Sequence record: NC_134264.1
DNA length: 64,000 nt
Strand: one strand, 5' to 3'
Source: Escherichia phage Lindwurm
Under the pieces are notes generated by a model. That model worked only from the letters and a program-made list of their open reading frames with translations, made no database searches and was not told where the DNA came from. Below, piece after piece: positions 14,696 through 40,576 of the stretch. Positions within the stretch are counted from its first letter, which is position 1; the number at the start of each line of letters is the position of its first letter. The translations under genes were made by a program, and so were the position numbers.

Positions 14696-15116
14696 TTTCT
14701 CAACAAATTAATTGCAAATACTGAAGTGGGGTGGCAACTTCCACTTTCACGCTGCGCTGCTGCTTTGCTATACCGCACAAATCCTTGAGGATGGCCGCTA
14801 AGCCAGATTTGCTCACCTAATGCTTCATATACTAGCTCATACTAGATGCAATATAACTTACAGAATCACGTCTCGGAGTTTTTCACTCCTCCCGTCTCAC
14901 TTCACAACCACCTCTATCTAGGTTGCTTCGAGGCCTTACCAGGGTTCCTACGGGACGCAGATCGCTAAGTATTCTATTAACTATTTGTTTAAAAACTAAC
15001 ACGTAACAGTTAAAACAACCCTTAATGGGGCAGCCTAACTGTTCCGTATCGCGGATTGTAAACAAGAAAAATTAGCAAAATCAATTTTTACTAATGTCTC
15101 TCAATTCAATATAAAT

Positions 15117-15145
15117 ATTATATCAAGATTTTGGGCATCCTGCAA
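15117..15145 (-). promoter_or_regulatory. promoter-like element
   Basis: minus-strand TTGCAG-17-TATAAT followed by ATTTATATTGAATTGAGAGAC. Confidence 0.4.
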
Positions 15146-15236
15146 GTAAAATTTTCCGGATGGTGCTATCATTGGTCTTGAGTACGGATAAAACCGAGCC
15201 AAAATGACTCGGTAATCAGAGTTCAGCTAATAAAAA

Positions 15237-15629
15237 TCATTCATCATTTAATCCCGGAACATAGATCCCAACACGGTTTAATTGTTCTTTAGCTTCTTTG
15301 AGAATATCTGGAGTGTACTCCCAAATATCATCTTCCACCTGTAAAAGATGGGGCGAACAACCATCATCCGGCACACGACATATGGCCAAACCACGTGGAT
15401 GGAACAAAGAGAAGTTTAGGGCAACAATCAAGCCCATAGCAGACAATTCATTCCAATCCAATTCCCATTCCCCCGCGTAGCCGGATAGGAAAACACCAAC
15501 ACAGGGATCATCTGTTTGCTGCTCAGGAAAAGTGAAGGAGGCTTGTCTTACCCCCAACCAACGTTGTAGCAGCTTCTCCGCACGTTTCACCAAACTAGGG
15601 TCAATCTGACGCCAATATACTTGTTCCAT
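15237..15629 (-). CDS. hypothetical protein, paralog A
   Basis: 130 aa; shares W.ELDxMGL.xALN..LF.P and C-terminal G.Y.PGL with the adjacent ORF. Confidence 0.5.
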   Translation of the reverse strand: MEQVYWRQIDPSLVKRAEKLLQRWLGVRQASFTFPEQQTDDPCVGVFLSGYAGEWELDWNELSAMGLIVALNFSLFHPRGLAICRVPDDGCSPHLLQVEDDIWEYTPDILKEAKEQLNRVGIYVPGLNDE

Positions 15630-15638
15630 TATGCCTCC

Positions 15639-16067
15639 TTAGGCAGTTAAACCTGGGATCATATACCCGAAACGTCGAAGTTTCTGAATCCCCTCATTTA
15701 CTTCTTCCGGTGAGTAAGACCAACCATAACGTTCATTAATCTGAAAACCAGGAGATTCACTAGTTTTATAGTTAACAACTAGGCGATGCTTAGCAGGCAT
15801 AAACAGCTTATAGTTTAACGCAAAAACTAAGCCCATTTCGTCTAACTCTTTCCAGCCCACAATCTCTTCAAGATCCTCCTCTACCTGAACAATTAAACCA
15901 ATACAGGGAGCCTCATCAATATCATCTTTAAAAGCAAAGGAGATTTCGTTATTCTCACACCATATTTTCAAAGAGTTAATAGCCTCATTATACAGGCTAG
16001 CCGGGAGAGTACGCCAAAAGTTAACTAAAATTGGGTTAGCTTCTTTAGAGAATACATTATTGAACAT
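15639..16067 (-). CDS. hypothetical protein, paralog B
   Basis: 142 aa; tandem paralog of 15237..15629. Confidence 0.5.
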   Translation of the reverse strand: MFNNVFSKEANPILVNFWRTLPASLYNEAINSLKIWCENNEISFAFKDDIDEAPCIGLIVQVEEDLEEIVGWKELDEMGLVFALNYKLFMPAKHRLVVNYKTSESPGFQINERYGWSYSPEEVNEGIQKLRRFGYMIPGLTA

Positions 16068-16069
16068 AT

Positions 16070-16582
16070 TTACACCTTAAATTGTTGCAAGGATTTACAC
16101 ATTTCAAGATTTGGGCTAAATTCTAGCATATAGCTAACAGCTTTTAAATCTTGAAGATTTATCCCAGTCCTACCGTTGACTATAACCGTTGGATACTGAT
16201 ACATCATAGCACCCGCATCATCAAGCACACACCAATGTTTGAGCTTATGCTTTTCAACGAAGCGAAGAACAGAATTACCCCTAGATAATCCACCCCCAGT
16301 AAAATCCGTTGTACCAAGAAAACGATCGATAAGACCTAATCCGGTCATAATCTGAATGTTCTCCATCTCATTTCTGACAGAGAACCAAGATGATACTCCA
16401 ACAATCATTATTGGAGAAGGACGAATAAAGTCCTGAAAAGCCTTGAGAAGCGGTTTGAAAACCCAATCACTTCCAAAGAAAATCTTTTCATCATCAGGCG
16501 CATGATATTGGGAGATGCTCGAATTGAGCACCCCATCAATGTCTAGAAAAATAATTGGAGTATTACTTATTTCCTGACACAT
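16070..16582 (-). CDS. HAD-like hydrolase/phosphatase
   Basis: N-terminal IFLDIDGVLN (HAD motif I DxDG). Confidence 0.5.
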   Translation of the reverse strand: MCQEISNTPIIFLDIDGVLNSSISQYHAPDDEKIFFGSDWVFKPLLKAFQDFIRPSPIMIVGVSSWFSVRNEMENIQIMTGLGLIDRFLGTTDFTGGGLSRGNSVLRFVEKHKLKHWCVLDDAGAMMYQYPTVIVNGRTGINLQDLKAVSYMLEFSPNLEMCKSLQQFKV

Positions 16583-17378
16583 AAGGTCTACCCTCTAAAT
16601 GAGCTTCTACACGAGCAATAAAATCAGGATCACTGAAAGCATCTACCGCACCTTTACTCCAGTAAGGGATACCGCGTTCTTCCAGCTGGTACATCTCACT
16701 ACGAGTCATACCTTGATAGCTCGGTTCCGCCGCTAGGGCACTATCATAGTAGTTAACAACCATTAGCTTGGCAGCAGTCAAATTAAGAACAGGAAATAAT
16801 TCCCAGTAGAAGTTAATTACTTGGTTAGAGCAACCAACCACAACGATCATATCTTGACTGGTAATACCATCAAAAACATTGTACATTTCTGCGTACGCTG
16901 GAGCATGCTCCCCAAAAAAGATTACATTAGGTTTAACCCATTTATAATCGTCTGGATCAATAGAATTGTACCCTACATCAATAATCCGTTTATTGCTACT
17001 ATTGTAGCTATCAGCTACAACAACCTCTTTTAAATATCCGTGAATGTGCAGAATGTCACTATGTGGAACGCCAGCACGCTCAATAAGGTCATCAACGTTG
17101 GTAGTCAAGTTTACTACTTGGCCTGGATATTGTTTATACCATTCACCAATACGCAAATGCGCAAGATTGGGTTCAACAGTTTTTAGCTCTTCACGACGCT
17201 TGTTGTAAAACATATGGGTTTTATGATAAAAATTACCACGAAAGGCATGAATATTACATACCTCTTCTAGATCATAATCATCCCACAATGCTTTACCGCT
17301 AGCAGTATCAGTACGAAAAGCTCGTACACCACTTTCAACACTCAAACCTGCACCACTAATAATAATTAATCTACGCAT
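16563..17378 (-). CDS. Sir2-family (sirtuin-like) NAD-dependent protein
   Basis: GAGLSVESGVRAFR Rossmann/NAD motif, TTNVDDL, HIHG. Confidence 0.65.
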   Translation of the reverse strand: MRRLIIISGAGLSVESGVRAFRTDTASGKALWDDYDLEEVCNIHAFRGNFYHKTHMFYNKRREELKTVEPNLAHLRIGEWYKQYPGQVVNLTTNVDDLIERAGVPHSDILHIHGYLKEVVVADSYNSSNKRIIDVGYNSIDPDDYKWVKPNVIFFGEHAPAYAEMYNVFDGITSQDMIVVVGCSNQVINFYWELFPVLNLTAAKLMVVNYYDSALAAEPSYQGMTRSEMYQLEERGIPYWSKGAVDAFSDPDFIARVEAHLEGRPYVSGNK

Positions 17379-17592
17379 TTTTCACCTGTTCTCTGAAGTT
17401 TTGCCCAATACTGTCTAATAGCTCAGCTAATTCTTTATTGCCTTTCTCCATTAAGGTATTAGCAATAACTTCTAGCATAGTAGCACAGGATTCAACACCA
17501 TCCTTATAGCCAGTTTCCCACTGCTGCATTAATGCGTTTTCCAAAGCGTCGTTTAAACCCTTATCTGGTAGCATCGGCTTCGAGAATGCCAT
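17371..17592 (-). CDS. hypothetical protein
   Basis: 73-aa ORF. Confidence 0.4.
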   Translation of the reverse strand: MAFSKPMLPDKGLNDALENALMQQWETGYKDGVESCATMLEVIANTLMEKGNKELAELLDSIGQNFREQVKNA

Positions 17593-17785
17593 AAAGTTTC
17601 TCCTCTAGTTCCATAACACGATTTTCATAAGAGGCACGCAACTTTTCAATTGCCAGCGCACGCACTGTAACCTCATTAGAATTAATAGCTAATTGGGCCA
17701 GATCTTCTGTTTCCATACGTCCGTTGTAAATTAAGCGATATTTAAGGTGTTTCACATTCTTAGTCATTATTAAACTCCACTGCAA
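17561..17785 (-). CDS. hypothetical protein
   Basis: 74-aa ORF; start may be internal. Confidence 0.35.
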   Translation of the reverse strand: MQWSLIMTKNVKHLKYRLIYNGRMETEDLAQLAINSNEVTVRALAIEKLRASYENRVMELEEKLYGILEADATR

Positions 17786-18140
17786 CTGTTTCTAGGTCTT
17801 CATCAGAAAAATTAGAGTATACATCTTTAAGGTATTGTTTAATGTCTTCAGTAATATCTTCGTATCCCTCAGGAATACGTTGGTATACTTTTAGTACTCT
17901 ATTATAAACAAATTCAATATCATACTTTATTTCACCCTCATCCTCGTCAAACAAGCAATCTGAGTTATACGGTGATACATCTAGATTTGTTTCTACCCAA
18001 TCACCAATAATTGATGGATATCCAATACCCTCTAGATGGGAATAATCTCCAGTAGATGCAAAAATAGCTTCTCTAAGATCGTCTACGCCAAGATGGAAAC
18101 CACCACATGTAGACTCAACTATATAGGGCTTTAATTCCAT
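17760..18140 (-). CDS. hypothetical acidic protein
   Basis: 126-aa ORF downstream of promoter. Confidence 0.5.
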   Translation of the reverse strand: MELKPYIVESTCGGFHLGVDDLREAIFASTGDYSHLEGIGYPSIIGDWVETNLDVSPYNSDCLFDEDEGEIKYDIEFVYNRVLKVYQRIPEGYEDITEDIKQYLKDVYSNFSDEDLETVAVEFNND

Positions 18141-18169
18141 ACCTTTCTCCTCTCAAATTTATAAATCTA

Positions 18170-18197
18170 TTATATATAAATTTTTGGCTGAAAGCAA
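18170..18197 (-). promoter_or_regulatory. early-type promoter
   Basis: minus-strand TTGCTT-16-TATAAT then ATTTATAAATTTGAGAGGAG. Confidence 0.45.
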
Positions 18198-18199: not shown

Positions 18200-18236
18200 A
18201 AAATAAAAGCCAGGTCGACTAGCAACCCGGCTGATT
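18200..18236 (-). terminator. hairpin terminator after nrdD
   Basis: AGCCGGG...CCTGGCT stem followed by TTTTATTTT on minus strand. Confidence 0.45.
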
Positions 18237-18239: not shown

Positions 18240-20114
18240 TTATTTAGCTCGAATATCCTGATGTTTCACTCTGCCCATCACCTCGTGCTGTTTACCGGGG
18301 TTAAATGGACGAGCACCCGGATTTCCAAGATACCCACAAACTCGACGAGTTACTTCAAGAGTTTCGGGGTCATGATTACCACAGATAGGGCACTTAAATC
18401 CATCTTCGGATGCTATTGTTTCACCTAAGAATCCACATTTACCACAAGAATCCACCGGAGTATTAATACCGAAGTAATGAACCTTACTAGCAGCATAATT
18501 AATAACCCATTCCAATGCATCTGGGAATCGTTTCATATCCGGTAATTCTACATAGGAAATACACCCACCAGAAGCAATCGGAGTAAAGTTAGATTCATAA
18601 TCAAATTTGACGTTAGGAGCAACTTTACGTTCCACATCAAGGTGGTGAGAGTTAGTGTAGTATCCTTTGGACAGAATATCTTCATGCTCCGGGAAATATT
18701 CACGGTCTAGACGACAAAAACGGTCACATAGGGATTCTGATGGTGTAGCATACAGGCTATAACCTAACTTAGTCTCTTCCTTCTTTTGATCGACCCTATC
18801 TCGCATGTACTGCAATACACGCTGAACAAACTTGATGCAGGTCTCGGACATTGTATCTACATCTTTGCCAAACATGAACTGTAGCATTTCATGGCAACCA
18901 ATATACCCTAGAGATACAGAAGCACGGTTATAGAAATGATCGAATACATATTCATCAGGCCCCAAGCGTAACCCAAAGGCTCCTGACATATAGAGGATGG
19001 GTGCAGCTTTAGCTTGAATGTATTTTAAGCGATCAACTCTCCACTCCAACGCTTTTAATGCTGTATCCACACGTAGCTCAAGCAAATCAAAGAATAGGTC
19101 AATATTTCCCTCAGCTTCGATAGCAATTCTAGGCAAGTTTACAGAAACAACACCTAAGTTATTACGACCGGCAGTTTCACCATCTTCTGTAGCAGCTAGG
19201 AATGAACGACAGCCCATAGAAACTTTATAGTCTCCAGTAACTTCTACAACCTTGTCATAACTGATATAATCTGGATACATACGTTCAGCAGTACATTTCA
19301 TAGCTAATTTCTTGATGTCATAATTAACATCTCCTGGTTTCATATTTACGCCATCACGAAGTACAAATACCAGTTTCGGGAAGATAGCTGTACGTTTATT
19401 GATACCTAAACCATCCATGCGTACTTTCAGTATTGCCCTCTGTACTAGACGTGCTTCCCAAGAAGTTCCTAGACCAAAACCAAAGGTAATAAATGGACTC
19501 TGACCATTAGAGTTGAACATGGTATTGATTTCATATTCTAAACCCTGACAAGCGTCATAGACTTCTTTTTCAGTCATCTCCGTAGCCATTACGGATGCTT
19601 TGGCTTCATCCTTAGTCCAACGTTTTGCAAACGCATGATTTTTATCATAGGATTTACGAACATAAGGGGCTAATACTTCATCAAGGCGATCTACAGAAGT
19701 ACCACCATACTGATGGGAGCTAACCTGAGTGATAATCTGAGCAGTAATAGCCGCCGCAGTAGTAATAGAGTTTGGAGTGCTAATTTCAGCATTACCAACC
19801 TTCATACCATTCTTCAACATATCTTCCAGAGCTACCAGACAACAGTTAGTCATGCCTAATGCAGCATAATCAGCATCATGGAAATGAATATCCCCAATCA
19901 TATGAGCATTTCGAATCTGAATTGGCATTTCTTCTAGAATCAGATACTTACTCAATTCACCTGCAAGCATATCCCTTTGTGTAGGGAAACGTTCTGAGGG
20001 TTTATTGGCATTATTAAATAGCAGCTCTTCATCTGCTGACCCTTCGATAATCTCTTTGCAGTTTCTAATTAACGCCTGCATTTCTTTATATTTTAGTTCT
20101 TCGTTACGATTCAT
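18240..20114 (-). CDS. nrdD: anaerobic ribonucleoside-triphosphate reductase (class III)
   Basis: 624 aa; C-terminal glycyl radical motif RVCGYLG; Zn ribbon CGKCGF...CPICG; GAAGGAGG RBS. Confidence 0.9.
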   Translation of the reverse strand: MNRNEELKYKEMQALIRNCKEIIEGSADEELLFNNANKPSERFPTQRDMLAGELSKYLILEEMPIQIRNAHMIGDIHFHDADYAALGMTNCCLVALEDMLKNGMKVGNAEISTPNSITTAAAITAQIITQVSSHQYGGTSVDRLDEVLAPYVRKSYDKNHAFAKRWTKDEAKASVMATEMTEKEVYDACQGLEYEINTMFNSNGQSPFITFGFGLGTSWEARLVQRAILKVRMDGLGINKRTAIFPKLVFVLRDGVNMKPGDVNYDIKKLAMKCTAERMYPDYISYDKVVEVTGDYKVSMGCRSFLAATEDGETAGRNNLGVVSVNLPRIAIEAEGNIDLFFDLLELRVDTALKALEWRVDRLKYIQAKAAPILYMSGAFGLRLGPDEYVFDHFYNRASVSLGYIGCHEMLQFMFGKDVDTMSETCIKFVQRVLQYMRDRVDQKKEETKLGYSLYATPSESLCDRFCRLDREYFPEHEDILSKGYYTNSHHLDVERKVAPNVKFDYESNFTPIASGGCISYVELPDMKRFPDALEWVINYAASKVHYFGINTPVDSCGKCGFLGETIASEDGFKCPICGNHDPETLEVTRRVCGYLGNPGARPFNPGKQHEVMGRVKHQDIRAK

Positions 20115-33719: not shown

Positions 33720-34490
33720 GCCGATTACGCTGAGTGCAGAATCCCAACCGGAGCGCATTGAATAGAGTCGGTGGGTTAGTTGTAAAACTAGTACACAGGG
33801 GGCGGCAATCCCGGTTAGTGGCTAGAACGTGTAAAATGAGGCGTCTGAAACCTCTCCCCTAAACTCTTCTCTAATTTATAAATAGTGGGGTGTGGAAATC
33901 ACTTATGTAGTAACACTGCCGTACTAGTATAATTGGTATTATCAAGCCGTAACTGGTGGAAGATGTAGGTTCGAATCCTACGGTCGGTAAGAACTGGATA
34001 ACTGGTGCTTTTAATGTAAAAGCTTCCGAGGTTAGTTGCGCACTGCCTAAACCACGCGGTAGTTGGTTCCAGACTAACCAACCAGTCTGCTGAATAGTTT
34101 TATTACGATTTAACTATGTCCAGGCTAAAGAAGAACTTTAGAAGGTATTCTAGGATAGTGAAGTTCTTTCTCCATATCGGAGTAGTTTTTCAAGCTATCC
34201 CCAAAGTGGGAAATGCTGACATGAGAGATGTCACTAATGGTGCACAATAGCACAGGTAATTCGCGATAACTCCTGTTGAGTAGCAGCAAAAGGCGGGAAG
34301 TCATGACCCCAAGCCTAACCGAGTCCTCAATATACCGCAGGACATAACCACTAAGTCACCCTGACTTAAACTGGAAAATAATAGACGTTACCGTATTTTG
34401 TCTTGAAATACTTAATGAGTGAGACTTATGACTCTCCCGGTATCGTCTGTATTTTTAAGAGTTTTTACAAGAGTTCTTAAAAATACTTAA
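33720..34490 (+). ncRNA. structured non-coding leader/RNA region of unknown function
   Basis: about 770 nt without credible ORF, downstream of a promoter; orphan T-arm GTAGG-TTCGAAT-CCTAC at 33965-33981; mutually exclusive hairpins at 34050-34090. Confidence 0.35.
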
Positions 34491-34491
34491 A

Positions 34492-34566
34492 CGGGGTGTA
34501 GTCTAAGGGAGAGGCAGGAGTCTTCTAAATTCCTTTATGCAGGTTCGAATCCTGTCACCTCGGCCA
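34492..34566 (+). tRNA. tRNA-Arg (anticodon UCU)
   Basis: acceptor CGGGGTG/CACCTCG, D-stem GTCT/AGGC, anticodon loop CTTCTAA, T-arm GCAGG-TTCGAAT-CCTGT, encoded CCA. Confidence 0.7.
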
Positions 34567-34600
34567 ATTTTATTAACTGTAACTAAAACAAAGGAAACAT

Positions 34601-35548
34601 ATGTTTAATACTAAAAATATGAAAGAACTGACTTCTGAGCAGAAAGTAATTCGTACTATTAAACGTTGGGGTATTGGTGCTGTAGTTGGTTTAGCAGGCT
34701 TGATTCTAGCTTTTAATTCGTATACCATTGTTTCTGATGGTACGGTTAAAACCCAGACTTTCCTGGGTAAAGTAGACCCTAATCCAGTATTACCTGGTTT
34801 CCATCTTGTAAACCCGTTTGCATCTTTCGATACTTTTAGTACAAAAGATATTGCTGTAAAATTAGATAAACTTCAGGTTCCTAGTCAGGATAAGTTTAAA
34901 TCCACTGTTGACCTGACTGTTATGTTGCAGTTTGATGGTTCTAAGGCACCGATTAACCGTATTAACGCAGGTACTCAGGATCAGGCACTAGACAAGTATG
35001 TAACTGAAAAATTACTGTCTACTATTCGTGAGTTTGGTAAGTCTGTACCTAAAGCACAAGATTTGTTTGATGCTAAAATTCAGGCTCAATTGCAAACTGC
35101 AATTCAACAAGAAGTTGAAGAGTATGCACGCCCATATGGTTATACAGTTAAGCAGGTATTCCTTCAGGATATTACTTTGCCACCGGTAATCATGGAACAG
35201 GTACAGAATACCAAAGTTCGTGAAGAGCAAGTTAATGCTGCGAAAGCTGAACTGGCTCGTGTTGAACAAGAAGCACAGCAGAAGGTTAAACAAGCAGAAG
35301 CAGATCGTGAAGCTCGCAACAACCAAGCTATTGCTAATGAACGTGACGCAGATGCTAAACTGTACGCAGCTAAGAAAGAAGCTGAAGCTAACGCCGCATT
35401 GCAACGTACCATTACTCCTGAGATGATTCGTTGGAAACAACTGGAAGTTGAGATGATTCGTGCTCAGAAATATCAAGGTGGTGTACCTCAGACTGTGGTA
35501 GGTACTGGCTACGATGGTCAAATGATCATGGATATGCGTAACAAATAA
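34601..35548 (+). CDS. SPFH/band-7 (prohibitin-like) membrane protein
   Basis: N-terminal TM GIGAVVGLAGLILAF; SPFH-like core; Ala/Gln/Glu-rich coiled-coil C-terminus. Confidence 0.6.
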   Translation: MFNTKNMKELTSEQKVIRTIKRWGIGAVVGLAGLILAFNSYTIVSDGTVKTQTFLGKVDPNPVLPGFHLVNPFASFDTFSTKDIAVKLDKLQVPSQDKFKSTVDLTVMLQFDGSKAPINRINAGTQDQALDKYVTEKLLSTIREFGKSVPKAQDLFDAKIQAQLQTAIQQEVEEYARPYGYTVKQVFLQDITLPPVIMEQVQNTKVREEQVNAAKAELARVEQEAQQKVKQAEADREARNNQAIANERDADAKLYAAKKEAEANAALQRTITPEMIRWKQLEVEMIRAQKYQGGVPQTVVGTGYDGQMIMDMRNK

Positions 35549-35571
35549 TAGTTACACGTAATCTTCGAACC

Positions 35572-35610
35572 AAGCCCGCGTTTCCTCCGAGAGCGCAGGC
35601 TTTTCTGTAT
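35572..35610 (+). terminator. hairpin terminator
   Basis: AAGCCCGCG...GCGCAGGCTT stem followed by TTTTCTGTATTT. Confidence 0.5.
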
Positions 35611-35620
35611 TTAAGGCAAA

Positions 35621-35660
35621 ATAAAAAGCCCCTAAGTCTTTCGACTAGGGGCTTTATTGT
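35621..35660. terminator. bidirectional terminator between convergent genes
   Basis: AGCCCCTA...TAGGGGCT stem flanked by A-run upstream and T-run downstream. Confidence 0.6.
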
Positions 35661-35872
35661 TTGGTTCCTTAGAACCATATACTCTTGTTACAGCAACCAC
35701 CCATACGGGAGGCCAATCTTGACTGAAAATCTACTCTAGGGGGCAGGATAAGAGTAGGCTTAAAGGCAAACGGATTGAACGCCGGTATTTGCGTAAACAT
35801 TGCTGGAGAGCAACAACGTGCTACAGGCATTGGGCAGCACGAAACAGGTTTTCTGCAACACATAATTTCTCC

Positions 35873-36289
35873 TTAGGAGTTATTACCACCATTTTGAGCT
35901 TTTGCAATTTGGCTTTGGCAGAAGCTATTAAACTTACCCATAAGTGATACAAGCTGTTTCCCATCCTCTGTCTTTGCGAAGTCTTCGAAAAGGGCTAGTA
36001 CTGCCTGTCCTTCCGCGGAAACCTGTGGTTGTTGGGTTTGTTGCTGAACTTGCTGCTGAGGCACCTGTTGCTGCATTTGTTGGGGCATTTGCGACTGCCC
36101 GCTCATTTGCTGCATCATTTGCATAGGACTCACACTTCCAGGGTTTTGCTGGAGTTGTTGCTGCATCTGTTGCGCTTCTGCTAAACGCTGTTGCAATTGT
36201 TGTAAGTAGGGGTTATCCAGACCCGGAATGGGCTGCTGGGAGCCCATACTTTGATTAAGTCCGTTATTTACAAAACCATATTTACTCAT
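35873..36289 (-). CDS. Gln-rich hypothetical protein
   Basis: 138 aa; low-complexity Q/P-rich core. Confidence 0.5.
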   Translation of the reverse strand: MSKYGFVNNGLNQSMGSQQPIPGLDNPYLQQLQQRLAEAQQMQQQLQQNPGSVSPMQMMQQMSGQSQMPQQMQQQVPQQQVQQQTQQPQVSAEGQAVLALFEDFAKTEDGKQLVSLMGKFNSFCQSQIAKAQNGGNNS

Positions 36290-36310
36290 AATGGGCTCCT
36301 CCCCTTAATA

Positions 36311-37297
36311 TTAAGCCGGCAGTTTAGCCTGCAGACCAGCCAGAGTCTGAGTGATAGTACCAAGACTTAAAGCGATTTGATTAATTACCTGACCGTTAGC
36401 ACCGCTACCCGCAGCGATTGCTTCACGTAGGCGACACGCATCTAACTCATCCTGGATACGCGCAGTAGTTACACCGGCGATCGCAGTCTGAAGTTCACAG
36501 CAACATTCAGCAATCTGACGTTCCAGAGAGTTCTGGTTAGCACACATCTGAGCCTGAACAGCGGCAAACTGGTTATTAGTTTGTAAAGTCTGCTGGAAAG
36601 CGATCTGTGCAGAATCAAACTTATCTTGTGCACGAGCTATCTGATTAGCTGCGAAAGATTGATCAATCTGGCGAGAAAGATCGAACTGGCCCTGAATAAC
36701 GTTGCGAGTTTCCTGGCAGATCTGATTAGACAGATTAGCACCTGTACCATAGATCGTAGTTAGTACAGACTGAGTATCACGGCTCTGGTTTTGGGATGTC
36801 TGGCTAAAACCATTGTTAACTGCGCTTAAAACAGCTCCAGTGCCCTGGTTAGCTTCTGTACGAGTAGTGTTAATAGCTGCTAGAATACTAGCGGTATCTT
36901 GGTTCTGAAGTACTGCATCAACTGCGGTACCTTCACCAACTACACCACGCCCACCGAATCCACCGAAACCACCGAATCCGCCTGTTAATAGAGCACCGAT
37001 TAGGATAGCTCCGAATAGTCCCATACCTTCACCACCGAAAGCACCTGCGTTTGCTGGGTAACCACCCAGTAGGCCAGGAAAGCCACTAGTGAATACGTTT
37101 ACTGGTTCTTGCATTTTATGTTTTCCATATTTATGACAATGTTCATCATCGTCATCTTCTTCATCGTCGTGTTCGCGATGTTTCTCTTCGTAGGCTCTGA
37201 CCTTCTCCCACTTTTTCTTATCTGATTCCTCGTGACGGTGCAGTTCTGCTGCAACGCTAGCGACGGTCTCAGGACTCTTAGCTACTTCTTCTGTCAT
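36311..37297 (-). CDS. glycine-zipper membrane-like protein with acidic N-terminus and Q/N/A-rich C-terminus
   Basis: AGGAGG RBS 9 nt before ATG at 37297; GGFGGFGGFGG repeats; CCC cluster. Confidence 0.5.
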   Translation of the reverse strand: MTEEVAKSPETVASVAAELHRHEESDKKKWEKVRAYEEKHREHDDEEDDDDEHCHKYGKHKMQEPVNVFTSGFPGLLGGYPANAGAFGGEGMGLFGAILIGALLTGGFGGFGGFGGRGVVGEGTAVDAVLQNQDTASILAAINTTRTEANQGTGAVLSAVNNGFSQTSQNQSRDTQSVLTTIYGTGANLSNQICQETRNVIQGQFDLSRQIDQSFAANQIARAQDKFDSAQIAFQQTLQTNNQFAAVQAQMCANQNSLERQIAECCCELQTAIAGVTTARIQDELDACRLREAIAAGSGANGQVINQIALSLGTITQTLAGLQAKLPA

Positions 37298-37503
37298 TTT
37301 TTGACACCTCCTAGTATATAGAAAATGTGTGTCTCTTTGATCACTCATCCATAACATATACTTTACACTACCCCAGCGAAAATGTCAAGGGGTCTTTAAA
37401 AATTGCCCCCGGATTTTTAGTGGGGTCACAAATTTTGGTCCTCACTACTTATCTGCTACCCTTAAATGCCCTATGATTTTCCTCTAAAAAGTTAAAAAAT
37501 TTA

Positions 37504-37532
37504 ATTGCTTGAATGCTATATTCTCTGTATAA
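37504..37532 (+). promoter_or_regulatory. early-type promoter
   Basis: TTGCTT-17-TATAAT then CTATAAATTTGAGAGAGG. Confidence 0.6.
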
Positions 37533-37562
37533 TATATCTATAAATTTGAGAGAGGAACCAAA

Positions 37563-38082
37563 TATGAATGTTGATGAGCTAACACAGCACCTCTTATCTA
37601 GAGGATTTGATACAGATAAATATCATTGCTGGTTAAGTACGGAAGGATGGCTAACAGTCCCGTTGTATGACTTCTCTGGGATGTTGAGGGGCTATCAAAC
37701 TTATAATCCTTCTGCTCCAAAAGGTCATGGTAAGTGCCCCTTTGAAGCTAAATACTTTACTTATTCTACTACCCAGTGTGTATGGGGACTAGAAACTCTC
37801 AATGGAGATGAAAAAGTAGTATTGATTGCTGAATCTGTATTTAAGGCAGTTGCGTTACATAACGCTGGTTATCCAGCCCTAGCAATGTTGGGTTCTTCTC
37901 CAGGAAAAGCGTTATTAAAGCAACTGAAATTACTACCTTTTAAATTGATAGCTGTCGGGGACAATGATCCTGCGGGTGAAAAATTTGCTAGAAAATTAAA
38001 CGGCTTTGTTTCTCCTGTAGATGTAGATGAGATGTCTACCGAAAACTTGAAAAATTTTCTTGCTATGAAGCTAAATTTCTAA
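37563..38082 (+). CDS. Toprim-domain protein
   Basis: VVLIAESVFKA ... KLIAVGDNDPAGEKFARKL (conserved Glu plus DxD); ATG 37563. Confidence 0.55.
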
Positions 38083-38088
38083 TATAAT
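38060..38088 (+). promoter_or_regulatory. early-type promoter embedded in 3' end of preceding CDS
   Basis: TTGCTA-17-TATAAT immediately upstream of tRNA-Ser. Confidence 0.5.
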
Positions 38089-38103
38089 ATATCTTATAAA
38101 TTC

Positions 38104-38192
38104 GGAAGAATAGCATAACGGTATTGCAGCAGATTGCTAATCTGTCGGTTTGAAATATAGCCTTGTGGGTTCGATTCCCACTTCTTCCGCCA
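38104..38192 (+). tRNA. tRNA-Ser (anticodon GCU), class II
   Basis: acceptor GGAAGAA/TTCTTCC, anticodon loop TTGCTAA, long variable arm, T-arm GTGGG-TTCGATT-CCCAC, CCA. Confidence 0.75.
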
Positions 38193-38198
38193 GATTTT

Positions 38199-38276
38199 GG
38201 TTCTCAAGCTCATATGGTATGAGCACCCAGCTCATAACTGGAAGGTACGTAGGTTCGAATCCTCGGGGAGCCACCA
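38199..38276 (+). tRNA. tRNA with CAU anticodon (Met/fMet/Ile2)
   Basis: acceptor GGTTCTC/GGGAGCC with G-U pairs, D-arm GCTC-ATATGGTAT-GAGC, anticodon loop CTCATAA; T-stem poorly paired. Confidence 0.55.
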
Positions 38277-38294
38277 ATTAAATAGAGGTCACAA

Positions 38295-38483
38295 ATGGAT
38301 CTATATATAGTTTATGTTGTGTTTATTCAAGATAGAGAATACCCGGATGAATATAAAAAAGGATATAGGTTAGCCAGAGCTACCTCTGAAGCCCAAGCTA
38401 TGGATAAAGTGGCAGATTATATGATTACGGTAGAAAACGTACACTATATCGACTACCTTGAAGCCTCAAAAGTAATTGACTAA
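38295..38483 (+). CDS. hypothetical protein
   Basis: 62 aa. Confidence 0.45.
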   Translation: MDLYIVYVVFIQDREYPDEYKKGYRLARATSEAQAMDKVADYMITVENVHYIDYLEASKVID

Positions 38484-38492
38484 GGAGACTAT

Positions 38493-38678
38493 ATGTCCAA
38501 GTTTCAAGAACTCAAGCAAGAGCTAGAAGAGTGTGCCTGCCCTGAGTGTAGGGGAATTGGTGAAAGTTCTGATGCAGAAGCAGGAGATACTTTTTGCAAT
38601 ATCTGGGTTTGCCCAAATTGCAATGGTACAGGTATTAATCCTAACTGTGGTATTTCCCTAGATATTGAACGAGGATAA
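38493..38678 (+). CDS. hypothetical Cys-rich zinc-ribbon protein
   Basis: CACPECRG...CNIWVCPNCNGTG. Confidence 0.5.
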   Translation: MSKFQELKQELEECACPECRGIGESSDAEAGDTFCNIWVCPNCNGTGINPNCGISLDIERG

Positions 38679-38779
38679 TACCTGTGAAACTAAAAGATTA
38701 CTATATTGGTTGGTTTGTGGGACTAGTAGTAGGATTTTCACTAGGCTATAATATGTATCAACTAATAAACTGATTACAT

Positions 38780-38856
38780 GGGGGTGTAATCGAATTGGCA
38801 TAGGTACTGGACTTAAAATTCAGGTTTTGTGGGTTCGAATCCCACCACCCCTACCA
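38780..38856 (+). tRNA. class I tRNA with UAA anticodon (Leu-decoding by anticodon)
   Basis: acceptor GGGGGTG/CACCCCT, D-stem ATC/GGT, anticodon stem CTGGA/TTCAG loop CTTAAAA, 5-nt variable loop, T-arm GTGGG-TTCGAAT-CCCAC, A73, CCA. Confidence 0.6.
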
Positions 38857-39031
38857 AATTAAGGAAATAAGATGTATAGACATCCACCTCCGCCAACACG
38901 TCGTTCTAGAGAAGTTATTCTCATGGAGTTGACTAAAAACTTCAAGGCAACTCTTGAAGATAGAGATCTAGGCACGGATGAAGACATTGATTTTATTTGT
39001 AGACTATTAAAGATGAAACTGGAGAAACAAC

Positions 39032-39238
39032 ATGGCTAATCCTGAAATTACCGCACAACGTTTCATGCTTAAAGGTATGATTGCTGAGGCGGGTTTAACT
39101 CAAGAGGTTGCAGATTTTCATAAGCAATTTCTTGATATTATAACTCTAGCTAAAGAAACTGGAGAAAAAGAACATGGAGCGGCAATTATGGCTATATCTC
39201 TTATTAGTCTAGACTTGGCTGAAGAATCTGGAGTTTAG
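39032..39238 (+). CDS. hypothetical protein
   Basis: 68 aa. Confidence 0.45.
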   Translation: MANPEITAQRFMLKGMIAEAGLTQEVADFHKQFLDIITLAKETGEKEHGAAIMAISLISLDLAEESGV

Positions 39239-39268
39239 ATCCTCCAAACAGAATTTTTAAAAATGTAC

Positions 39269-39298
39269 TTGCCTTTTGCTTTAAATTTCTGGTATAAT
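39269..39298 (+). promoter_or_regulatory. early-type promoter
   Basis: TTGCCT-18-TATAAT. Confidence 0.5.
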
Positions 39299-39328
39299 AG
39301 TTATATAAATTGATGAAGGAGTTAACGA

Positions 39329-39604
39329 ATGCAAAATCGTGTTATAGCAGCTGGTATTGAAAGTGCAATCTGTAAATCCTGGGAAGGCTGGGAAGGTGAG
39401 ATTGAATGGCTTTATTTCTACGATGTAGAGCTTCTGCCGGAAATTAAAGCTAAATGTGTTGAAGCTGGCATGTCTCCAGATGCAAGAGCTGATATTGATA
39501 TTTCAATGTCTGAACTTAAAGGTCGTGTAATCACTGTTAGTGATGAGGGCGAAGAAGTTTTTGAACTTCCGTTCTCCTTAACTGTCACTCCTAAGTTCGA
39601 CTAA
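39329..39604 (+). CDS. hypothetical protein
   Basis: 91 aa. Confidence 0.5.
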   Translation: MQNRVIAAGIESAICKSWEGWEGEIEWLYFYDVELLPEIKAKCVEAGMSPDARADIDISMSELKGRVITVSDEGEEVFELPFSLTVTPKFD

Positions 39605-39640
39605 CTAATACAGCATTGGGCAAGTTCTTTAAAATTTGAC

Positions 39641-39669
39641 TTGCCCAATACTATAAAACTTGGTATAAT
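39641..39669 (+). promoter_or_regulatory. early-type promoter
   Basis: TTGCCC-17-TATAAT. Confidence 0.55.
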
Positions 39670-39802
39670 ATTTATCTAATTTGGAAAGTTCTTTTTAAGG
39701 TAGTTCTTACTTTAGCAGAGTAAATTTTTGGCAGATGGCCCCCACCATTTTACCGATAACTCCTAGTCAGTGCGGTAACACTGGCTACCTTAAAGAGAAT
39801 TT

Positions 39803-39890
39803 GGGCGTTTATTCCGTAAGTGGTAGCGGAGGGGACTGTAAATCCCTGGTCATTGCGACTCGAGTGGTTCGACTCCATTAACGCCCACCA
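39803..39890 (+). tRNA. tRNA-Tyr (anticodon GUA), class II
   Basis: acceptor GGGCGTT/AACGCCC, anticodon loop CTGTAAA, long variable arm, T-loop TTCGACT, CCA. Confidence 0.7.
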
Positions 39891-39897
39891 ATTTAAT

Positions 39898-39972
39898 GCA
39901 CCTATCGTCTAGCGGTTAGGACACCACTCTTTCACAGTGGGAACACGAGTTCGATCCTCGTTGGGTGTGCCA
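39898..39972 (+). tRNA. tRNA-Glu (anticodon UUC)
   Basis: acceptor GCACCTA/TGGGTGT, anticodon stem CCACT/AGTGG loop CTTTCAC, T-arm ACGAG-TTCGATC-CTCGT, CCA. Confidence 0.7.
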
Positions 39973-39981
39973 ATTAATAAT

Positions 39982-40052
39982 TGGGGTACGCATAGGTTGC
40001 AAATGGGCCTCCAAAACCCATGAAAAGGTTTCGAATACCTTTACCCCTGCCA
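39982..40052 (+). tRNA. tRNA-Trp (anticodon CCA), tentative
   Basis: T-arm AAGGT-TTCGAAT-ACCTT, acceptor 3' TACCCCT + G + CCA, anticodon loop CTCCAAA; 1-72 mismatch and weak D-stem. Confidence 0.5.
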
Positions 40053-40058
40053 AAATTT

Positions 40059-40133
40059 GCACCTTTAGCTGAGATGGATTAGCGCTTGCCTGAAGAGCTT
40101 GAGAGGTTCGTTCGATTCGAACAGGGTGCACCA
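40059..40133 (+). tRNA. tRNA-Phe (anticodon GAA)
   Basis: acceptor GCACCTT/AGGGTGC, D-arm GCTG...TAGC, anticodon loop CTGAAGA, T-arm GTTCG-TTCGATT-CGAAC, CCA; anticodon stem has two U-U mismatches. Confidence 0.6.
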
Positions 40134-40150
40134 ATTTGAGGGAGCTGCTG

Positions 40151-40423
40151 ATGCATCCTGAAAACTTCTTTATTTACTGCGCTGATAAGTCGCTGAAACG
40201 TAGAATTAACAAAGTCTATCATTATCGTGCTAGTCAACAGCCTTATGTATATGCTTTTGATGATGATCACATTCCACTAGAACAATTATCTTGTGATTAC
40301 ATGATATTGAAGAACTTTGACGAGACAAAGATCTCAAGCGTTCATAATCGACAGAATCCATTAACGTGGAAATATAAGAAGAAAAAGAAAGGCATCAAAT
40401 TTTTAAAAAATGTAGTTGCTTAG
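40151..40423 (+). CDS. hypothetical protein
   Basis: ATG 40151 with GAGGGAG RBS (track ORF begins inside tRNA-Phe). Confidence 0.45.
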   Translation: MHPENFFIYCADKSLKRRINKVYHYRASQQPYVYAFDDDHIPLEQLSCDYMILKNFDETKISSVHNRQNPLTWKYKKKKKGIKFLKNVVA

Positions 40424-40444
40424 TTTCCAAAAGTTCTGTATAAT
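40416..40444 (+). promoter_or_regulatory. early-type promoter
   Basis: TTGCTT-17-TATAAT. Confidence 0.6.
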
Positions 40445-40568: not shown

Positions 40569-40576
40569 AATTTTTA

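What the first reader, a model, noticed from the sequence alone, without database searches (positions are those of the whole stretch)
15237..17378. Sir2-like protein with HAD-like hydrolase and tandem paralogous small proteins
The Sir2-family ORF (GAGLSVESGVRAFR, HG) overlaps a HAD-like (FLDIDGVL) ORF and is followed by two tandemly duplicated ORFs sharing W.ELDxMGL..ALN and C-terminal PGL motifs. Sirtuin-like domains in phage could modify host or phage proteins or manipulate NAD pools. The linked paralogs are uncharacterised.
Basis: partly seen in the sequence, partly recalled or inferred. Interest (0 to 1): 0.5.

Follow-up and report, generated by a model that had tools for sequence, protein, structure and literature searches.

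The report
T5-phage sirtuin–phosphatase early operon
This is the well-conserved early operon of a T5-like phage that encodes a zinc-less sirtuin, a small HAD phosphatase and two duplicated small proteins of unknown function; the genes are real, but they are already annotated in hundreds of phages and the sirtuin–phosphatase pairing has already been published as a predicted NAD-dependent RNA-repair module.

Summary
Four tightly packed minus-strand genes encode:
- a Sir2-family protein (Pfam SIR2, E 1e-24);
- a HAD phosphatase (Pfam HAD_SAK_2, E 1e-19) whose start overlaps the Sir2 stop by 20 nt;
- two paralogs (31% identity, E 5e-20), both in Pfam DUF7415.

The window is a Tequintavirus (T5-like) genome, 95–97% identical to many sequenced phages in which the Sir2 gene is routinely annotated. 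Iyer et al. 2022 (PMC9503650) already describe this sirtuin plus 'Swiss-army-knife' HAD neighbourhood in T5-like phage SP15. They predict NAD-dependent RNA-end repair, with the sirtuin acting like KptA/Tpt1. No experiment has tested this.

- The four genes are the distal part of a seven-gene unit bracketed by hairpin terminators.
- The whole phage sirtuin clade has lost the zinc ribbon and changed TQNID to TTNVD.
- Close Sir2 relatives sit in RNA-ligase operons.
- The acidic first gene of the unit (ORF126) is a conserved Sir2 neighbour.
- HAD relatives also abut NARP1-like NAD-rebuilding genes.
- Each DUF7415 protein is itself an internal duplication. The domain is widespread (T4-like and P2/186-like phages) and not specific to Sir2.

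Verdict: already known, function untested, modest interest.

The parts
18208..18232 (-). Hairpin plus T-run directly after the nrdD stop codon; upstream boundary of the unit
   Evidence: The terminator scan found it. RNA fold gives -18.5 kcal/mol, z -4.7, and 0 of 200 shuffles fold as well.
18169..18197 (-). Promoter-like element TTGCTT-17 nt-TATAAT (perfect -10, weak -35), followed by a GAGGAG ribosome-binding site before ORF126
   Evidence: Read by eye from the sequence. It was not listed by the consensus scan because the -35 matches only 3 of 6, so this is an inference.
17760..18140 (-). ORF126: very acidic 126-aa protein (pI 4.05); first gene of the unit and a conserved neighbour of the phage sirtuin
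   Evidence: It belongs to PHROG 11748, function unknown, and has no Pfam or NCBIfam hit. A homolog lies between HAD and Sir2 in Erwinia phage KEY (32% identity, E 7e-14) and in contig L105. Another lies upstream of Sir2 in Pectobacterium phage DU_PP_V (E 2e-6). It is not a cREC domain (hhalign E 0.41).
17561..17785 (-). Small ORF (74 aa from TTG; probably 68 aa from the internal ATG), function unknown
   Evidence: PHROG 5236, matching from query residue 8. It overlaps its neighbours.
17371..17592 (-). Small ORF (73 aa), function unknown; overlaps the Sir2 start by 8 nt
   Evidence: PHROG 5827.
16563..17378 (-). Zinc-less phage-clade sirtuin (Sir2 family), 271 aa
   Evidence: Family and structure matches:
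- Pfam SIR2, E 1.2e-24, covering profile positions 1-178 of 180.
- PHROG 2162.
- Best solved relative is E. coli CobB 1s5p, E 2e-17.

In 121 clade members:
- GAGxSxxSG, F21/R22, Y58, R61, N94, D96, H113-G114, FFxE, VGxS and N209 are invariant.
- T93 replaces the Gln of TQNID.
- There are no conserved Cys residues in positions 114-148.

It scores below the NCBIfam CobB cut-offs and has no PADLOC hit.
16070..16582 (-). Small HAD-superfamily phosphatase of the HAD_SAK_2 family, 170 aa; its start overlaps the Sir2 stop by 20 nt
   Evidence: Pfam PF18143, E 1e-19. All four catalytic motifs are invariant: D14/D16, S64/S65, R101 in GGGxxRG, and D121/D122. The AlphaFold model has pLDDT 95.6. Foldseek against PDB gives only weak matches to small cap-less HADs (MDP-1, KdsC-like, T4 Pnkp), with TM 0.4-0.5.
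15639..16067 (-). DUF7415 paralog B (142 aa, acidic); two DUF7415 repeats plus a C-terminal helix; the family's HP.GLA motif is degenerate
15237..15629 (-). DUF7415 paralog A (130 aa, acidic); two DUF7415 repeats; its C-terminal repeat keeps the family consensus (DWNELS..GL..ALN..FHPRGLA)
   Evidence: Pfam at 108 bits. The halves score 8.1e-16 and 1.9e-14. It is 31% identical to B.
15188..15213 (-). Hairpin (9-bp stem) followed by TTTTA, 24 nt after the stop of paralog A; probable end of the transcription unit
   Evidence: Sequence. RNA fold gives -13.2 kcal/mol, z -2.5, and 1 of 200 shuffles folds as well. The scan missed it, so support is moderate.

Best explanation
The finding is the distal part of a roughly 3-kb, seven-gene early transcription unit of a T5-like phage: ORF126, two small ORFs, Sir2, HAD, DUF7415-B and DUF7415-A.

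Shown here:
- The sirtuin keeps every NAD-binding and catalytic residue, but it belongs to a phage-only clade that has lost the zinc ribbon.
- The HAD enzyme keeps all four phosphatase motifs.
- The genes are translationally coupled or abutting.

Inferred, following Iyer et al. 2022. The sirtuin does not deacylate proteins. It uses NAD+ to ADP-ribosylate a phosphate group, most likely a 2'-phosphate left on a cleaved tRNA or RNA end, as Tpt1/KptA does. This releases nicotinamide and a phospho-ADP-ribose by-product. The HAD phosphatase then either removes the remaining terminal phosphate from the RNA end or dephosphorylates that by-product. Together they would form a minimal 3'-end-healing module that protects the phage's and host's tRNAs from nuclease-based defence, with sealing left to a host ligase.

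ORF126 is probably a third partner of the sirtuin. The two DUF7415 proteins are co-transcribed passengers: a widespread small early-phage domain that has been duplicated four-fold here. They are not part of the sirtuin chemistry.
For: Family assignments and intact active sites.

Operon structure: overlapping junctions and flanking hairpins.

Linkage of Sir2 and HAD:
- It survives a change of gene order in divergent T5 relatives: HAD-ORF126like-Sir2 in Erwinia phage KEY and contig L105.
- Adjacent genes have discordant histories. In Salmonella phage ende, HAD is 87% identical to the window's but Sir2 only 52%.

RNA-repair context:
- Sir2 proteins 50-60% identical to this one lie in co-directional operons with T4-type RNA ligase 1, a cREC cyclic-phosphate domain, an AAA_33 kinase and a Metallophos phosphoesterase in rV5, Raoultella phage Ro1 and Erwinia phage pEa_SNUABM_55.
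- The HAD belongs to the Pfam family defined from 'Swiss Army Knife' RNA-repair proteins.
- The window carries 21 tRNA genes.

Signs of a changed substrate:
- The zinc ribbon is lost and Q is replaced by T in TQNID across the clade.
- Scores fall far below the CobB equivalog cut-offs.

No Macro domain and no defence-type Sir2 similarity were found in the unit.

The same neighbourhood and mechanism are proposed in PMC9503650, section 3.7.3.
Against: - No sirtuin has been shown to act on an RNA 2'-phosphate, and no experimental paper was found.
- The T5-like genome phiP4, whose Sir2 is 100% identical, has no annotated RNA ligase or polynucleotide kinase in the 95% of the record examined. The module would therefore depend on a host ligase. 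E. coli RtcB needs neither 2'-phosphate removal nor a 3'-phosphatase (my own knowledge).
- The class-III sirtuin Y-x-x-R pair and the FGE loop are retained. This is equally compatible with a desuccinylase-type protein deacylase.
- HAD is missing from the Klebsiella and Pectobacterium T5-like clusters that keep Sir2.
- In some Tequintaviruses two small ORFs separate Sir2 from HAD.
- HAD relatives also sit next to NARP1-like NAD-reconstitution genes. This points to a small-molecule substrate rather than RNA ends.
Confidence: 0.4

Rival explanations
1. The sirtuin is a CobB-like NAD-dependent protein lysine deacylase (deacetylase or desuccinylase). It would reprogramme host or phage proteins early in infection, for example by activating acetyl-CoA synthetase. 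The HAD phosphatase and the small proteins would be unrelated neighbours.
For: - The best solved-structure and NCBIfam matches are CobB-type deacylases.
- The catalytic His, the NAD motifs, the FGE loop and the class-III Y58-x-x-R61 pair are invariant.
- The small-domain segment keeps its length although the Cys ligands are gone.
- This is the interpretation given for the Vibrio-phage homologs in PMC5107563 and in most GenBank annotations.
Against: - Scores are far below every CobB equivalog cut-off: 100 against 243, and 89.5 against 320.
- The zinc ribbon is lost and the TQNID glutamine replaced across the clade.
- Close relatives are embedded in RNA-ligase/kinase/phosphoesterase operons, which a protein deacylase does not explain.
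- Linkage to HAD persists through a rearrangement.
Confidence: 0.25
2. Sir2 and HAD act on small NAD-derived molecules as a counter-defence or metabolic module. The HAD enzyme would dephosphorylate a phospho-ADP-ribose such as ADPR-1''-phosphate. That would make it a non-homologous analogue of the Macro-domain phosphatase Adpp of NARP1-AP. The sirtuin would make or consume the corresponding ADPR derivative.
For: - HAD_SAK_2 homologs (35-40% identical) overlap by 4 nt, or sit one small gene upstream of, a Prs-like plus NAPRTase-family gene pair. That pair is the operational signature of NARP1. This is seen in Serratia phage ChuuTotoro, Acinetobacter phage ABPH49 and a 152-kb metagenomic phage.
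- A phosphatase joined to NARP1 is known to defeat the aRES defence by converting ADPR-1P to ADPR (bioRxiv 10.64898/2026.01.28.702374).
- T5-like phages carry other NAD-related functions. The closely related phiP4 annotates an NAD-dependent DNA ligase and a NADAR/YbiA-like gene. Some other T5-likes carry NARP3.
Against: - The three NARP1-linked examples are one phage lineage, so this is one independent observation.
- The known Adpp is a Macro domain, not a HAD.
- The part of the closely related T5-like genome phiP4 that was examined has no annotated Prs/NAPRTase pair to use ADPR.
- An NAD-consuming sirtuin is an odd partner for NAD restoration.
- This reading does not explain the RNA-ligase contexts of the Sir2 clade.
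Confidence: 0.2
3. There is no functional unit. The genes are independent accessory early genes that happen to be syntenic in a densely packed, co-oriented region of T5-like genomes.
For: - Every component except Sir2 is dispensable in some T5 relative. HAD is absent in Klebsiella and Pectobacterium phages, and DUF7415 is absent in KEY.
- Small ORFs are inserted between Sir2 and HAD in slur09.
- Neighbouring genes show mosaic identity levels.
- Nearly all genes in this half of the window are on the same strand.
Against: - Sir2, HAD and ORF126 stay together after a change of gene order in KEY-like phages.
- Stop and start codons overlap.
- Hairpins bracket exactly these seven genes.
Confidence: 0.15

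Closest known systems
Sirtuin + 'Swiss-army-knife-like' HAD neighbourhood of Escherichia phage SP15 (type 3 phage sirtuin RNA-repair context of Iyer, Burroughs, Anantharaman & Aravind 2022, PMC9503650)
   Same: It is the same gene pair in the same phage group. The SP15 ortholog of DUF7415-B is 90% identical to the window's (P0005). The Pfam families are the same, there is no adjacent Macro domain, and the published prediction is NAD-dependent RNA-end repair.
   Different: Nothing material differs for Sir2 and HAD. In the passages of the paper that were read, it does not discuss the ORF126 partner, the DUF7415 pair, the operon boundaries or the NARP1-linked HAD relatives. The function remains a prediction.
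E. coli CobB (PDB 1S5P), a class III sirtuin protein deacylase
   Same: The Rossmann core, the GAGxSxxSG..FR motif, the catalytic His-Gly, the FGE loop, the GxS motif and the Y-x-x-R pair all align.
   Different: The similarity is modest (E 2e-17). All four zinc-ligand cysteines are absent. TQNID has become TTNVD. There is a C-terminal extension of about 50 aa. Scores are far below the NCBIfam equivalog cut-offs.
Tpt1/KptA RNA 2'-phosphotransferase
   Same: The proposed chemistry is the same: a phosphate oxygen attacks C1'' of NAD+, releasing nicotinamide. The genomic company is also comparable, with RNA ligase, kinase and cyclic-phosphate enzymes found beside close Sir2 relatives.
   Different: The fold is unrelated, since Tpt1 is an ADP-ribosyltransferase-fold enzyme. 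The activity has never been shown for a sirtuin. This is an analogy only, not membership.
T4 polynucleotide kinase-phosphatase (Pnkp), HAD phosphatase domain
   Same: Both are small HAD phosphatases with a DxDGT/V nucleophile motif and a phage RNA-end-healing context. T4 Pnkp is among the Foldseek matches (rank 12, TM 0.41).
   Different: There is no detectable sequence similarity to any PDB chain, and the structural match is weak. The window's HAD has no fused kinase, and no RNA ligase is annotated in the closely related phage phiP4.
Adpp, the ADPR-1''-phosphate phosphatase of the extended NARP1-AP pathway (Osterman et al. 2026 preprint)
   Same: Both are phosphatase genes attached to an NAD/ADPR-handling gene set in phages. 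HAD_SAK_2 relatives occupy the position next to a NARP1-like pair.
   Different: Adpp is a Macro-domain protein, whereas this is a HAD. No biochemical link has been shown, and no NARP1 pair is annotated in the examined part of the closely related phage phiP4.
Pfam DUF7415 (PF24187) / PHROG 2502 small phage proteins
   Same: Both small proteins are clear members.
   Different: Most family members carry a single domain and are 60-110 aa long. The T5-like proteins carry two repeats each and occur as a tandem gene pair, giving four repeats. Only one of the four keeps the family's HP.GLA consensus.

Membership tests
Sir2/sirtuin superfamily (Pfam PF02146) | Profile score above the curated gathering threshold over the full domain | tested here: met
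   87.6 bits against a cut-off of 24, covering profile positions 1-178 of 180.
Sir2/sirtuin superfamily (Pfam PF02146) | NAD-binding GAGxSxxxG..FR motif, catalytic His, and the Asn/Asp of the TQNID motif | tested here: met
   G9-A10-G11, S13, S16-G17, F21-R22, N94, D96 and H113-G114 are invariant in 121 clade members. The Gln of TQNID is replaced by an invariant Thr93.
Sir2/sirtuin superfamily (Pfam PF02146) | Four-cysteine zinc-binding small domain | tested here: not met
   No Cys aligns with the CobB zinc ligands, and there is no conserved Cys column between residues 114 and 148 in 121 sequences. The same loss was noted for Vibrio-phage homologs in PMC5107563.
CobB-type NAD-dependent protein deacylase (NCBIfam equivalogs NF040867, NF001755 and the related subfamily model NF001753) | Score at or above the curated equivalog/subfamily cut-off | tested here: not met
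   100.4 against 243, 89.5 against 320, and 76.7 against 318.
CobB-type NAD-dependent protein deacylase | Class III Tyr-x-x-Arg pair that recognises acidic acyl groups | tested here: met
   FYNKRR aligns with CobB FYNARR, and Y58 and R61 are invariant in the clade. That these residues bind succinyl or malonyl groups is from my own knowledge.
CobB-type NAD-dependent protein deacylase | Deacylase activity on acyl-lysine substrates | not testable with these tools
   This needs an enzyme assay.
Defence-type Sir2 NADases (ThsA, DSR1/2, SIR2-HerA and similar) | Similarity to defence Sir2 profile models | tested here: not met
   No PADLOC hit at E up to 0.01.
Phage 'RNA-repair' sirtuin clade (Iyer et al. 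2022) | Sirtuin gene in a conserved neighbourhood with a SAK-like HAD phosphatase and no adjacent Macro domain | tested here: met
   The Sir2 stop overlaps the HAD_SAK_2 start, and no Macro domain is found in the seven-gene unit. The pairing is kept in KEY-like phages.
Phage 'RNA-repair' sirtuin clade (Iyer et al. 2022) | Close homology to sirtuins encoded beside RNA ligase, cREC and kinase genes | tested here: met
   56% identity to rV5 gp080, 60% to Ro1 and 50% to pEa_SNUABM_55. Those contexts are shown.
Phage 'RNA-repair' sirtuin clade (Iyer et al. 2022) | NAD-dependent removal of an RNA 2'-phosphate | not testable with these tools
   No experiment was found in the literature. This needs a biochemical assay.
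HAD superfamily, HAD_SAK_2 family (PF18143) | Profile score above threshold and the four HAD catalytic motifs | tested here: met
   71.8 bits against 27.5. Motif I is D14-x-D16, II is S64/S65, III is R101, and IV is D121-D122, all invariant.
HAD superfamily, HAD_SAK_2 family (PF18143) | Phosphatase acting on RNA terminal phosphates | not testable with these tools
   The fold search gives only weak matches to small cap-less HADs, including T4 Pnkp. The substrate is not inferable.
NARP1-AP phosphatase Adpp | Macro domain homologous to yeast Poa1p | tested here: not met
   The protein is a HAD and has no Macro hit. Adpp is defined. Only a functional analogy is possible.
DUF7415 (PF24187) | Profile score above threshold | tested here: met
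   121 and 108 bits against 27. Each half of each protein scores on its own, with E from 6e-20 to 3e-14.

The most novel reading that the evidence does not exclude
The zinc-less phage sirtuin is not a protein deacylase. It is an NAD-dependent phosphate ADP-ribosyltransferase, a sirtuin-fold analogue of Tpt1/KptA. It works with the acidic ORF126 protein as an obligatory partner. The HAD_SAK_2 enzyme is a phospho-ADP-ribose phosphatase, a non-homologous counterpart of the Macro-domain Adpp. That one assignment would explain why this HAD is attached to a sirtuin in T5-like phages and to a NARP1-like NAD-rebuilding pair in ChuuTotoro-like phages.
Probability: 0.2. Interest if true: 0.7.

Novelty: already known. 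Interest (0 to 1): 0.3.

Why it matters
If the published prediction holds, this clade would be the first sirtuins shown to act on nucleic-acid phosphate groups rather than on acyl-lysines. T5-like phages would then carry a minimal NAD-dependent end-healing module against RNA-cleaving defence systems.

T5 is a genetically tractable model phage, and E. coli defence systems that cut tRNA or deplete NAD are available. The question is therefore directly testable.

As it stands, the locus is an ordinary, well-conserved and already annotated part of T5-like genomes. The finding adds no new kind of system. The session's small increments are leads rather than discoveries:
- the conserved ORF126 partner;
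- the NARP1-linked relatives of the HAD;
- the internal duplication and wide distribution of DUF7415.

Tried and rejected
1. DUF7415 fold.
- BFVD returned only family members.
- The afdb50 library was unavailable.
- Sequence search of PDB found nothing.

2. Internal repeat of DUF7415. My own hhalign of the N-half against the C-half was not significant (E 0.12). The repeat claim therefore rests on the Pfam model hitting each half separately.

3. A specific link between DUF7415 and anaerobic ribonucleotide reductase.
- Evidence suggesting it: the domain sits between nrdD and nrdG in two T4-like genera. It lies downstream of nrdD in three T5-like lineages. It is absent, together with nrdD, from the KEY locus.
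- Why I downgraded it: an IMG/VR scan found 43 of 80 loci in P2/186-like prophages beside replication gene A. Other T4-likes place it near a Nudix gene.

4. ORF126 as a divergent cREC domain. This was rejected (hhalign E 0.41; BLASTP found nothing).

5. Sir2 as a defence-type NADase. There were no PADLOC hits.

6. HAD relatives in the PDB by sequence. None were found, and the structural matches were weak.

7. A first attempt to scan viral contigs with a broad DUF7415 alignment failed because no stretch was conserved enough.

8. A reverse-phosphorolysis role for the sirtuin, rebuilding NAD+ from ADPR-1''P plus nicotinamide. I set this aside as thermodynamically unlikely, on my own reasoning and without a test.

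9. The GenBank labels 'tail tube protein' and 'exonuclease' on the DUF7415 genes, and 'Sir2' on the HAD gene. No profile supports them, so I treated them as annotation artefacts.
Full report
**What is there**

Between 15237 and 17378 the minus strand carries four consecutive ORFs:
- a 271-aa protein at 16563-17378;
- a 170-aa protein at 16070-16582;
- a 142-aa protein at 15639-16067;
- a 130-aa protein at 15237-15629.

The first protein is Pfam SIR2 (E 1.2e-24, full-length domain). The second is HAD_SAK_2, 'HAD domain in Swiss Army Knife RNA repair proteins' (E 1e-19). Both small proteins are DUF7415 (121 and 108 bits against a cut-off of 27). The two small proteins are 31% identical over their whole length (E 5e-20). 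The Sir2 stop overlaps the HAD start by 20 nt, and the other junctions are 2 and 9 nt.

**Where the window comes from**

The region is 95-97% identical to many Tequintavirus (T5-like) phages of Escherichia, Salmonella and Klebsiella. It matches 529 phage records by megablast. In those records the first gene is routinely annotated as a Sir2-like or NAD-dependent deacetylase. The rV5 genome record already cites 'phage T5 putative Sir2-like protein YP_006930'. The surrounding genes are the T5 early region:
- PhoH on the opposite strand;
- anaerobic ribonucleotide reductase NrdD (18240-20114) upstream;
- the origin-binding helicase (from about 14695) downstream;
- a block of 21 tRNA genes at 33.9-46.5 kb.

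**Anatomy of the unit**

Directly after the nrdD stop there is a strong hairpin with a T-run (18232-18208; -18.5 kcal/mol, z -4.7). Next comes a perfect -10 TATAAT with a weak -35 (18197-18169, read by eye) and a GAGGAG ribosome-binding site. Seven co-oriented genes follow with overlapping or abutting junctions: ORF126 (17760-18140), two ORFs of about 70 aa, Sir2, HAD, DUF7415-B and DUF7415-A. Twenty-four nucleotides after the last stop there is a second hairpin followed by TTTTA (15213-15188; z -2.5). After that lies an extended -10 promoter-like site for the helicase gene. The finding is therefore the distal four genes of what looks like one early operon. Transcription itself was not tested.

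**The sirtuin**

Its best solved relative is E. coli CobB (1S5P, E 2e-17). I aligned it with 120 database relatives of at least 50% identity, all apparently from phage-sized contigs.
- The NAD-binding GAGxSxxSG..FR motif is invariant, as are Y58/R61 (the class III Y-x-x-R pair), N94, D96, the catalytic H113-G114, the FFxE loop, VGxS and N209.
- No cysteine column is conserved where CobB has its four zinc ligands.
- The Gln of the TQNID motif is an invariant Thr.

The enzyme therefore looks catalytically competent for NAD cleavage, but it belongs to a distinct, zinc-less phage clade. It scores far below NCBI's cut-offs for CobB deacylase equivalogs (100 against 243; 89.5 against 320). It has no similarity to defence-type Sir2 NADases. 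Zinc loss had already been noted for the Vibrio-phage homologs (PMC5107563).

**The HAD enzyme**

All four HAD motifs are invariant across 24-36 relatives down to 28% identity: D14-x-D16, S64/S65, R101 within GGGxxRG, and D121-D122. The AlphaFold model is very confident (pLDDT 95.6). It matches solved structures only weakly, and the best matches are small cap-less HADs (an Aquifex KdsC-like protein, MDP-1, T4 Pnkp; TM 0.4-0.5). The substrate cannot be read from the fold.

**What the literature already says**

Iyer, Burroughs, Anantharaman and Aravind (Viruses 2022, PMC9503650, section 3.7.3) describe a distinct clade of phage sirtuins in three neighbourhood types. [quoted passage not shown] SP15 is a T5-like phage, and its DUF7415-B ortholog is 90% identical to the window's. 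The authors propose that the sirtuin acts like KptA/Tpt1, using NAD+ to remove RNA 2'-phosphates. The associated phosphoesterases would either prepare the RNA end or process the ADP-ribose cyclic-phosphate by-product. I found no experimental test of this. The core of the finding is therefore already published as a prediction.

**Evidence gathered here for and against that prediction**

For:
- Sir2 proteins 50-60% identical to the window's lie in co-directional operons with RNA-repair genes. In rV5 the operon holds T4-type RNA ligase 1, a cREC cyclic-phosphate domain and a MazG-like pyrophosphatase. In Raoultella phage Ro1 it holds Metallophos, RNA ligase, cREC and an AAA_33 kinase. In Erwinia phage pEa_SNUABM_55 it holds Metallophos, RNA ligase and AAA_33.
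- The Sir2-HAD link survives a rearrangement. In Erwinia phage KEY and a related metagenomic contig the order is HAD, a gene of about 117 aa, then Sir2.

Against:
- The T5-like genome phiP4, whose Sir2 is identical to the window's, has no annotated RNA ligase or polynucleotide kinase in the 95% of the record I inspected.
- HAD is missing from the Klebsiella and Pectobacterium T5-like clusters.
- The retained Y-x-x-R and FGE features are what a desuccinylase-type deacylase would also have.

I put the RNA-end/ADPR-phosphate processing model at about 0.4, a CobB-like protein deacylase at about 0.25, a small-molecule NAD/ADPR counter-defence role at about 0.2, and 'no functional unit' at about 0.15.

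**Two new leads**

First lead: ORF126. This very acidic protein (pI 4.05) is the first gene of the unit, and it is homologous to the gene that sits between HAD and Sir2 in KEY-like phages (32% identity, E 7e-14). It is also homologous to the gene upstream of Sir2 in Pectobacterium phage DU_PP_V (E 2e-6). Among the T5-like (Demerecviridae) lineages examined, this family is the most frequent Sir2 neighbour: it was found in three of the four, but not detected in the Klebsiella cluster. It has no Pfam, NCBIfam or cREC similarity.

Second lead: HAD next to NAD-rebuilding genes. HAD_SAK_2 relatives (35-40% identical) in Serratia phage ChuuTotoro, Acinetobacter phage ABPH49 and a 152-kb metagenomic phage lie immediately upstream of a Prs-like plus NAPRTase-family pair, overlapping it by 4 nt in two cases. 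Osterman et al. define that gene signature as NARP1. A phosphatase added to NARP1 is known to defeat the aRES defence by converting ADPR-1''-phosphate to ADPR. That enzyme, however, is a Macro domain. The HAD could be a non-homologous equivalent, which would favour a phospho-ADP-ribose substrate in T5-like phages too. The three genomes are one lineage, so this counts as a single observation.

**The DUF7415 pair**

Structure of the proteins:
- Each half of each protein matches the 53-residue Pfam model on its own (E 6e-20, 3e-14, 8e-16, 2e-14). Each protein is therefore an internal duplication and the gene pair holds four repeats. My own hhalign of the halves was not significant.

Size and shape of the family:
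- The family is small: 70 representatives at E up to 1e-3 among 1.84 billion.
- Most members are single-domain proteins of 60-110 aa with the consensus DWNELS..GLI.RIN.EILHP.GLA..R.P.TG.S.
- Of the four repeats in the window, only the C-terminal repeat of paralog A keeps the HP.GLA core.

Distribution:
- The A/B duplication predates the split from the Klebsiella T5-likes, since both copies are present there.
- The domain is not tied to Sir2. It is absent from the KEY Sir2-HAD cluster.
- It sits between nrdD and nrdG in Jiaodavirus and Bragavirus T4-likes, and near a Nudix gene in others.
- In 43 of 80 IMG/VR loci it lies in P2/186-like prophages beside replication gene A, sometimes fused to DUF5405, the phage 186 Orf83 family.

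I conclude that it is a widespread small early-phage domain of unknown function that is co-transcribed with, but not part of, the sirtuin module. The GenBank labels 'tail tube protein' and 'exonuclease' have no profile support.

**Verdict**

The proposed protein-modification role is not the best-supported reading, and the paralogs are not specifically linked to Sir2. The locus is already annotated in hundreds of genomes, and its Sir2-HAD logic is already in the literature. I rate it 'already known' with interest 0.3. The most novel reading still open is a sirtuin-fold Tpt1 analogue working with ORF126 and a HAD phospho-ADPR phosphatase. I give that a probability of about 0.2, and it would be worth about 0.7 if true.

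Noticed in passing
L009:5001-8217, L010:5001-8222, L013:5001-8569: HAD_SAK_2 homologs (35-40% identical to the window's HAD) sit immediately upstream of a Prs-like plus NAPRTase-family gene pair, overlapping it by 4 nt in two cases. This is seen in Serratia phage ChuuTotoro, Acinetobacter phage ABPH49 and a 152-kb metagenomic phage. The pair is the NARP1 signature, so the HAD may be a non-Macro counterpart of the NARP1-AP phosphatase.
   Followed up: partly
window 17760-18140; L019:3652-4008; L105:743-1093; L024:7484-7849: The acidic ORF126 protein (PHROG 11748, no known domain) has homologs directly next to the sirtuin gene in three other T5-related lineages. In KEY-like phages the homolog lies between HAD and Sir2.
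   Followed up: partly
L002:4995-5237; L007:3959-4225: In T4-like Klebsiella (Jiaodavirus) and Proteus (Bragavirus) phages, a single-domain DUF7415 protein of 80-88 aa lies between nrdD and nrdG. In T5-like phages the DUF7415 genes are also within about 2.2 kb downstream of nrdD. They are absent, together with nrdD, from the Erwinia phage KEY locus.
   Followed up: partly
L025-L104 (for example L079:4825-5298, L038:6559-9330): Single-domain DUF7415 genes are common in P2/186-like prophages of 30-37 kb beside replication gene A (43 of 80 loci). In enterobacterial examples the domain is fused to the C-terminus of a DUF5405 (phage 186 Orf83-like) protein of 157 aa.
   Followed up: partly
(Salmonella phage ende and other Epseptimavirus-like records): Adjacent genes have very different histories. 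The HAD is about 87% identical to the window's, but the neighbouring Sir2 is only about 52% identical. That is less than the Sir2 of the unrelated rV5-like or Mydo-like phages (56-60%). This suggests gene replacement or horizontal exchange of the sirtuin.
   Followed up: no
L001:5567-5925 (slur09) versus window 16563-16582: Some Tequintaviruses carry an insertion of about 340 bp, with two ORFs of about 60 aa, between Sir2 and HAD. The Sir2/HAD overlap seen in the window is therefore not universal.
   Followed up: no
window 14696-15236: There is a 540-bp intergenic region between DUF7415-A and the origin-binding helicase gene. It contains a terminator-like hairpin (15213-15188) and an extended -10 promoter-like site (TTGCAG-17-TGaTATAAT, 15145-15117). 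The listed 955-aa ORF starts at a TTG about 25 codons upstream of the start annotated in relatives (2790 bp).
   Followed up: partly
window 33918-46491: ARAGORN finds 21 tRNA genes, and Rfam adds two further tRNA matches (38199-38273 and 33918-33989). This is the T5-type tRNA block, relevant to any tRNA-repair hypothesis.
   Followed up: no
(GenBank/PHROG labels): There are systematic mis-annotations in public records. DUF7415 proteins are labelled 'tail tube protein' or 'Phage exonuclease (ACLAME 70)'. The HAD protein is labelled 'Sir2 (NAD-dependent deacetylase)'. PHROG 18062, which is the C-terminal half of the HAD, carries the Sir2 name.
   Followed up: yes
L005 and L108 (phage phiP4 annotation): The same T5-like genome also encodes a split NAD-dependent DNA ligase, a YbiA/NADAR-like protein, a GrcA-like autonomous glycyl-radical cofactor and a Ser/Thr phosphatase. 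These NAD-, ADP-ribose- and NrdD-related accessory functions may bear on the roles of Sir2 and DUF7415.
   Followed up: no
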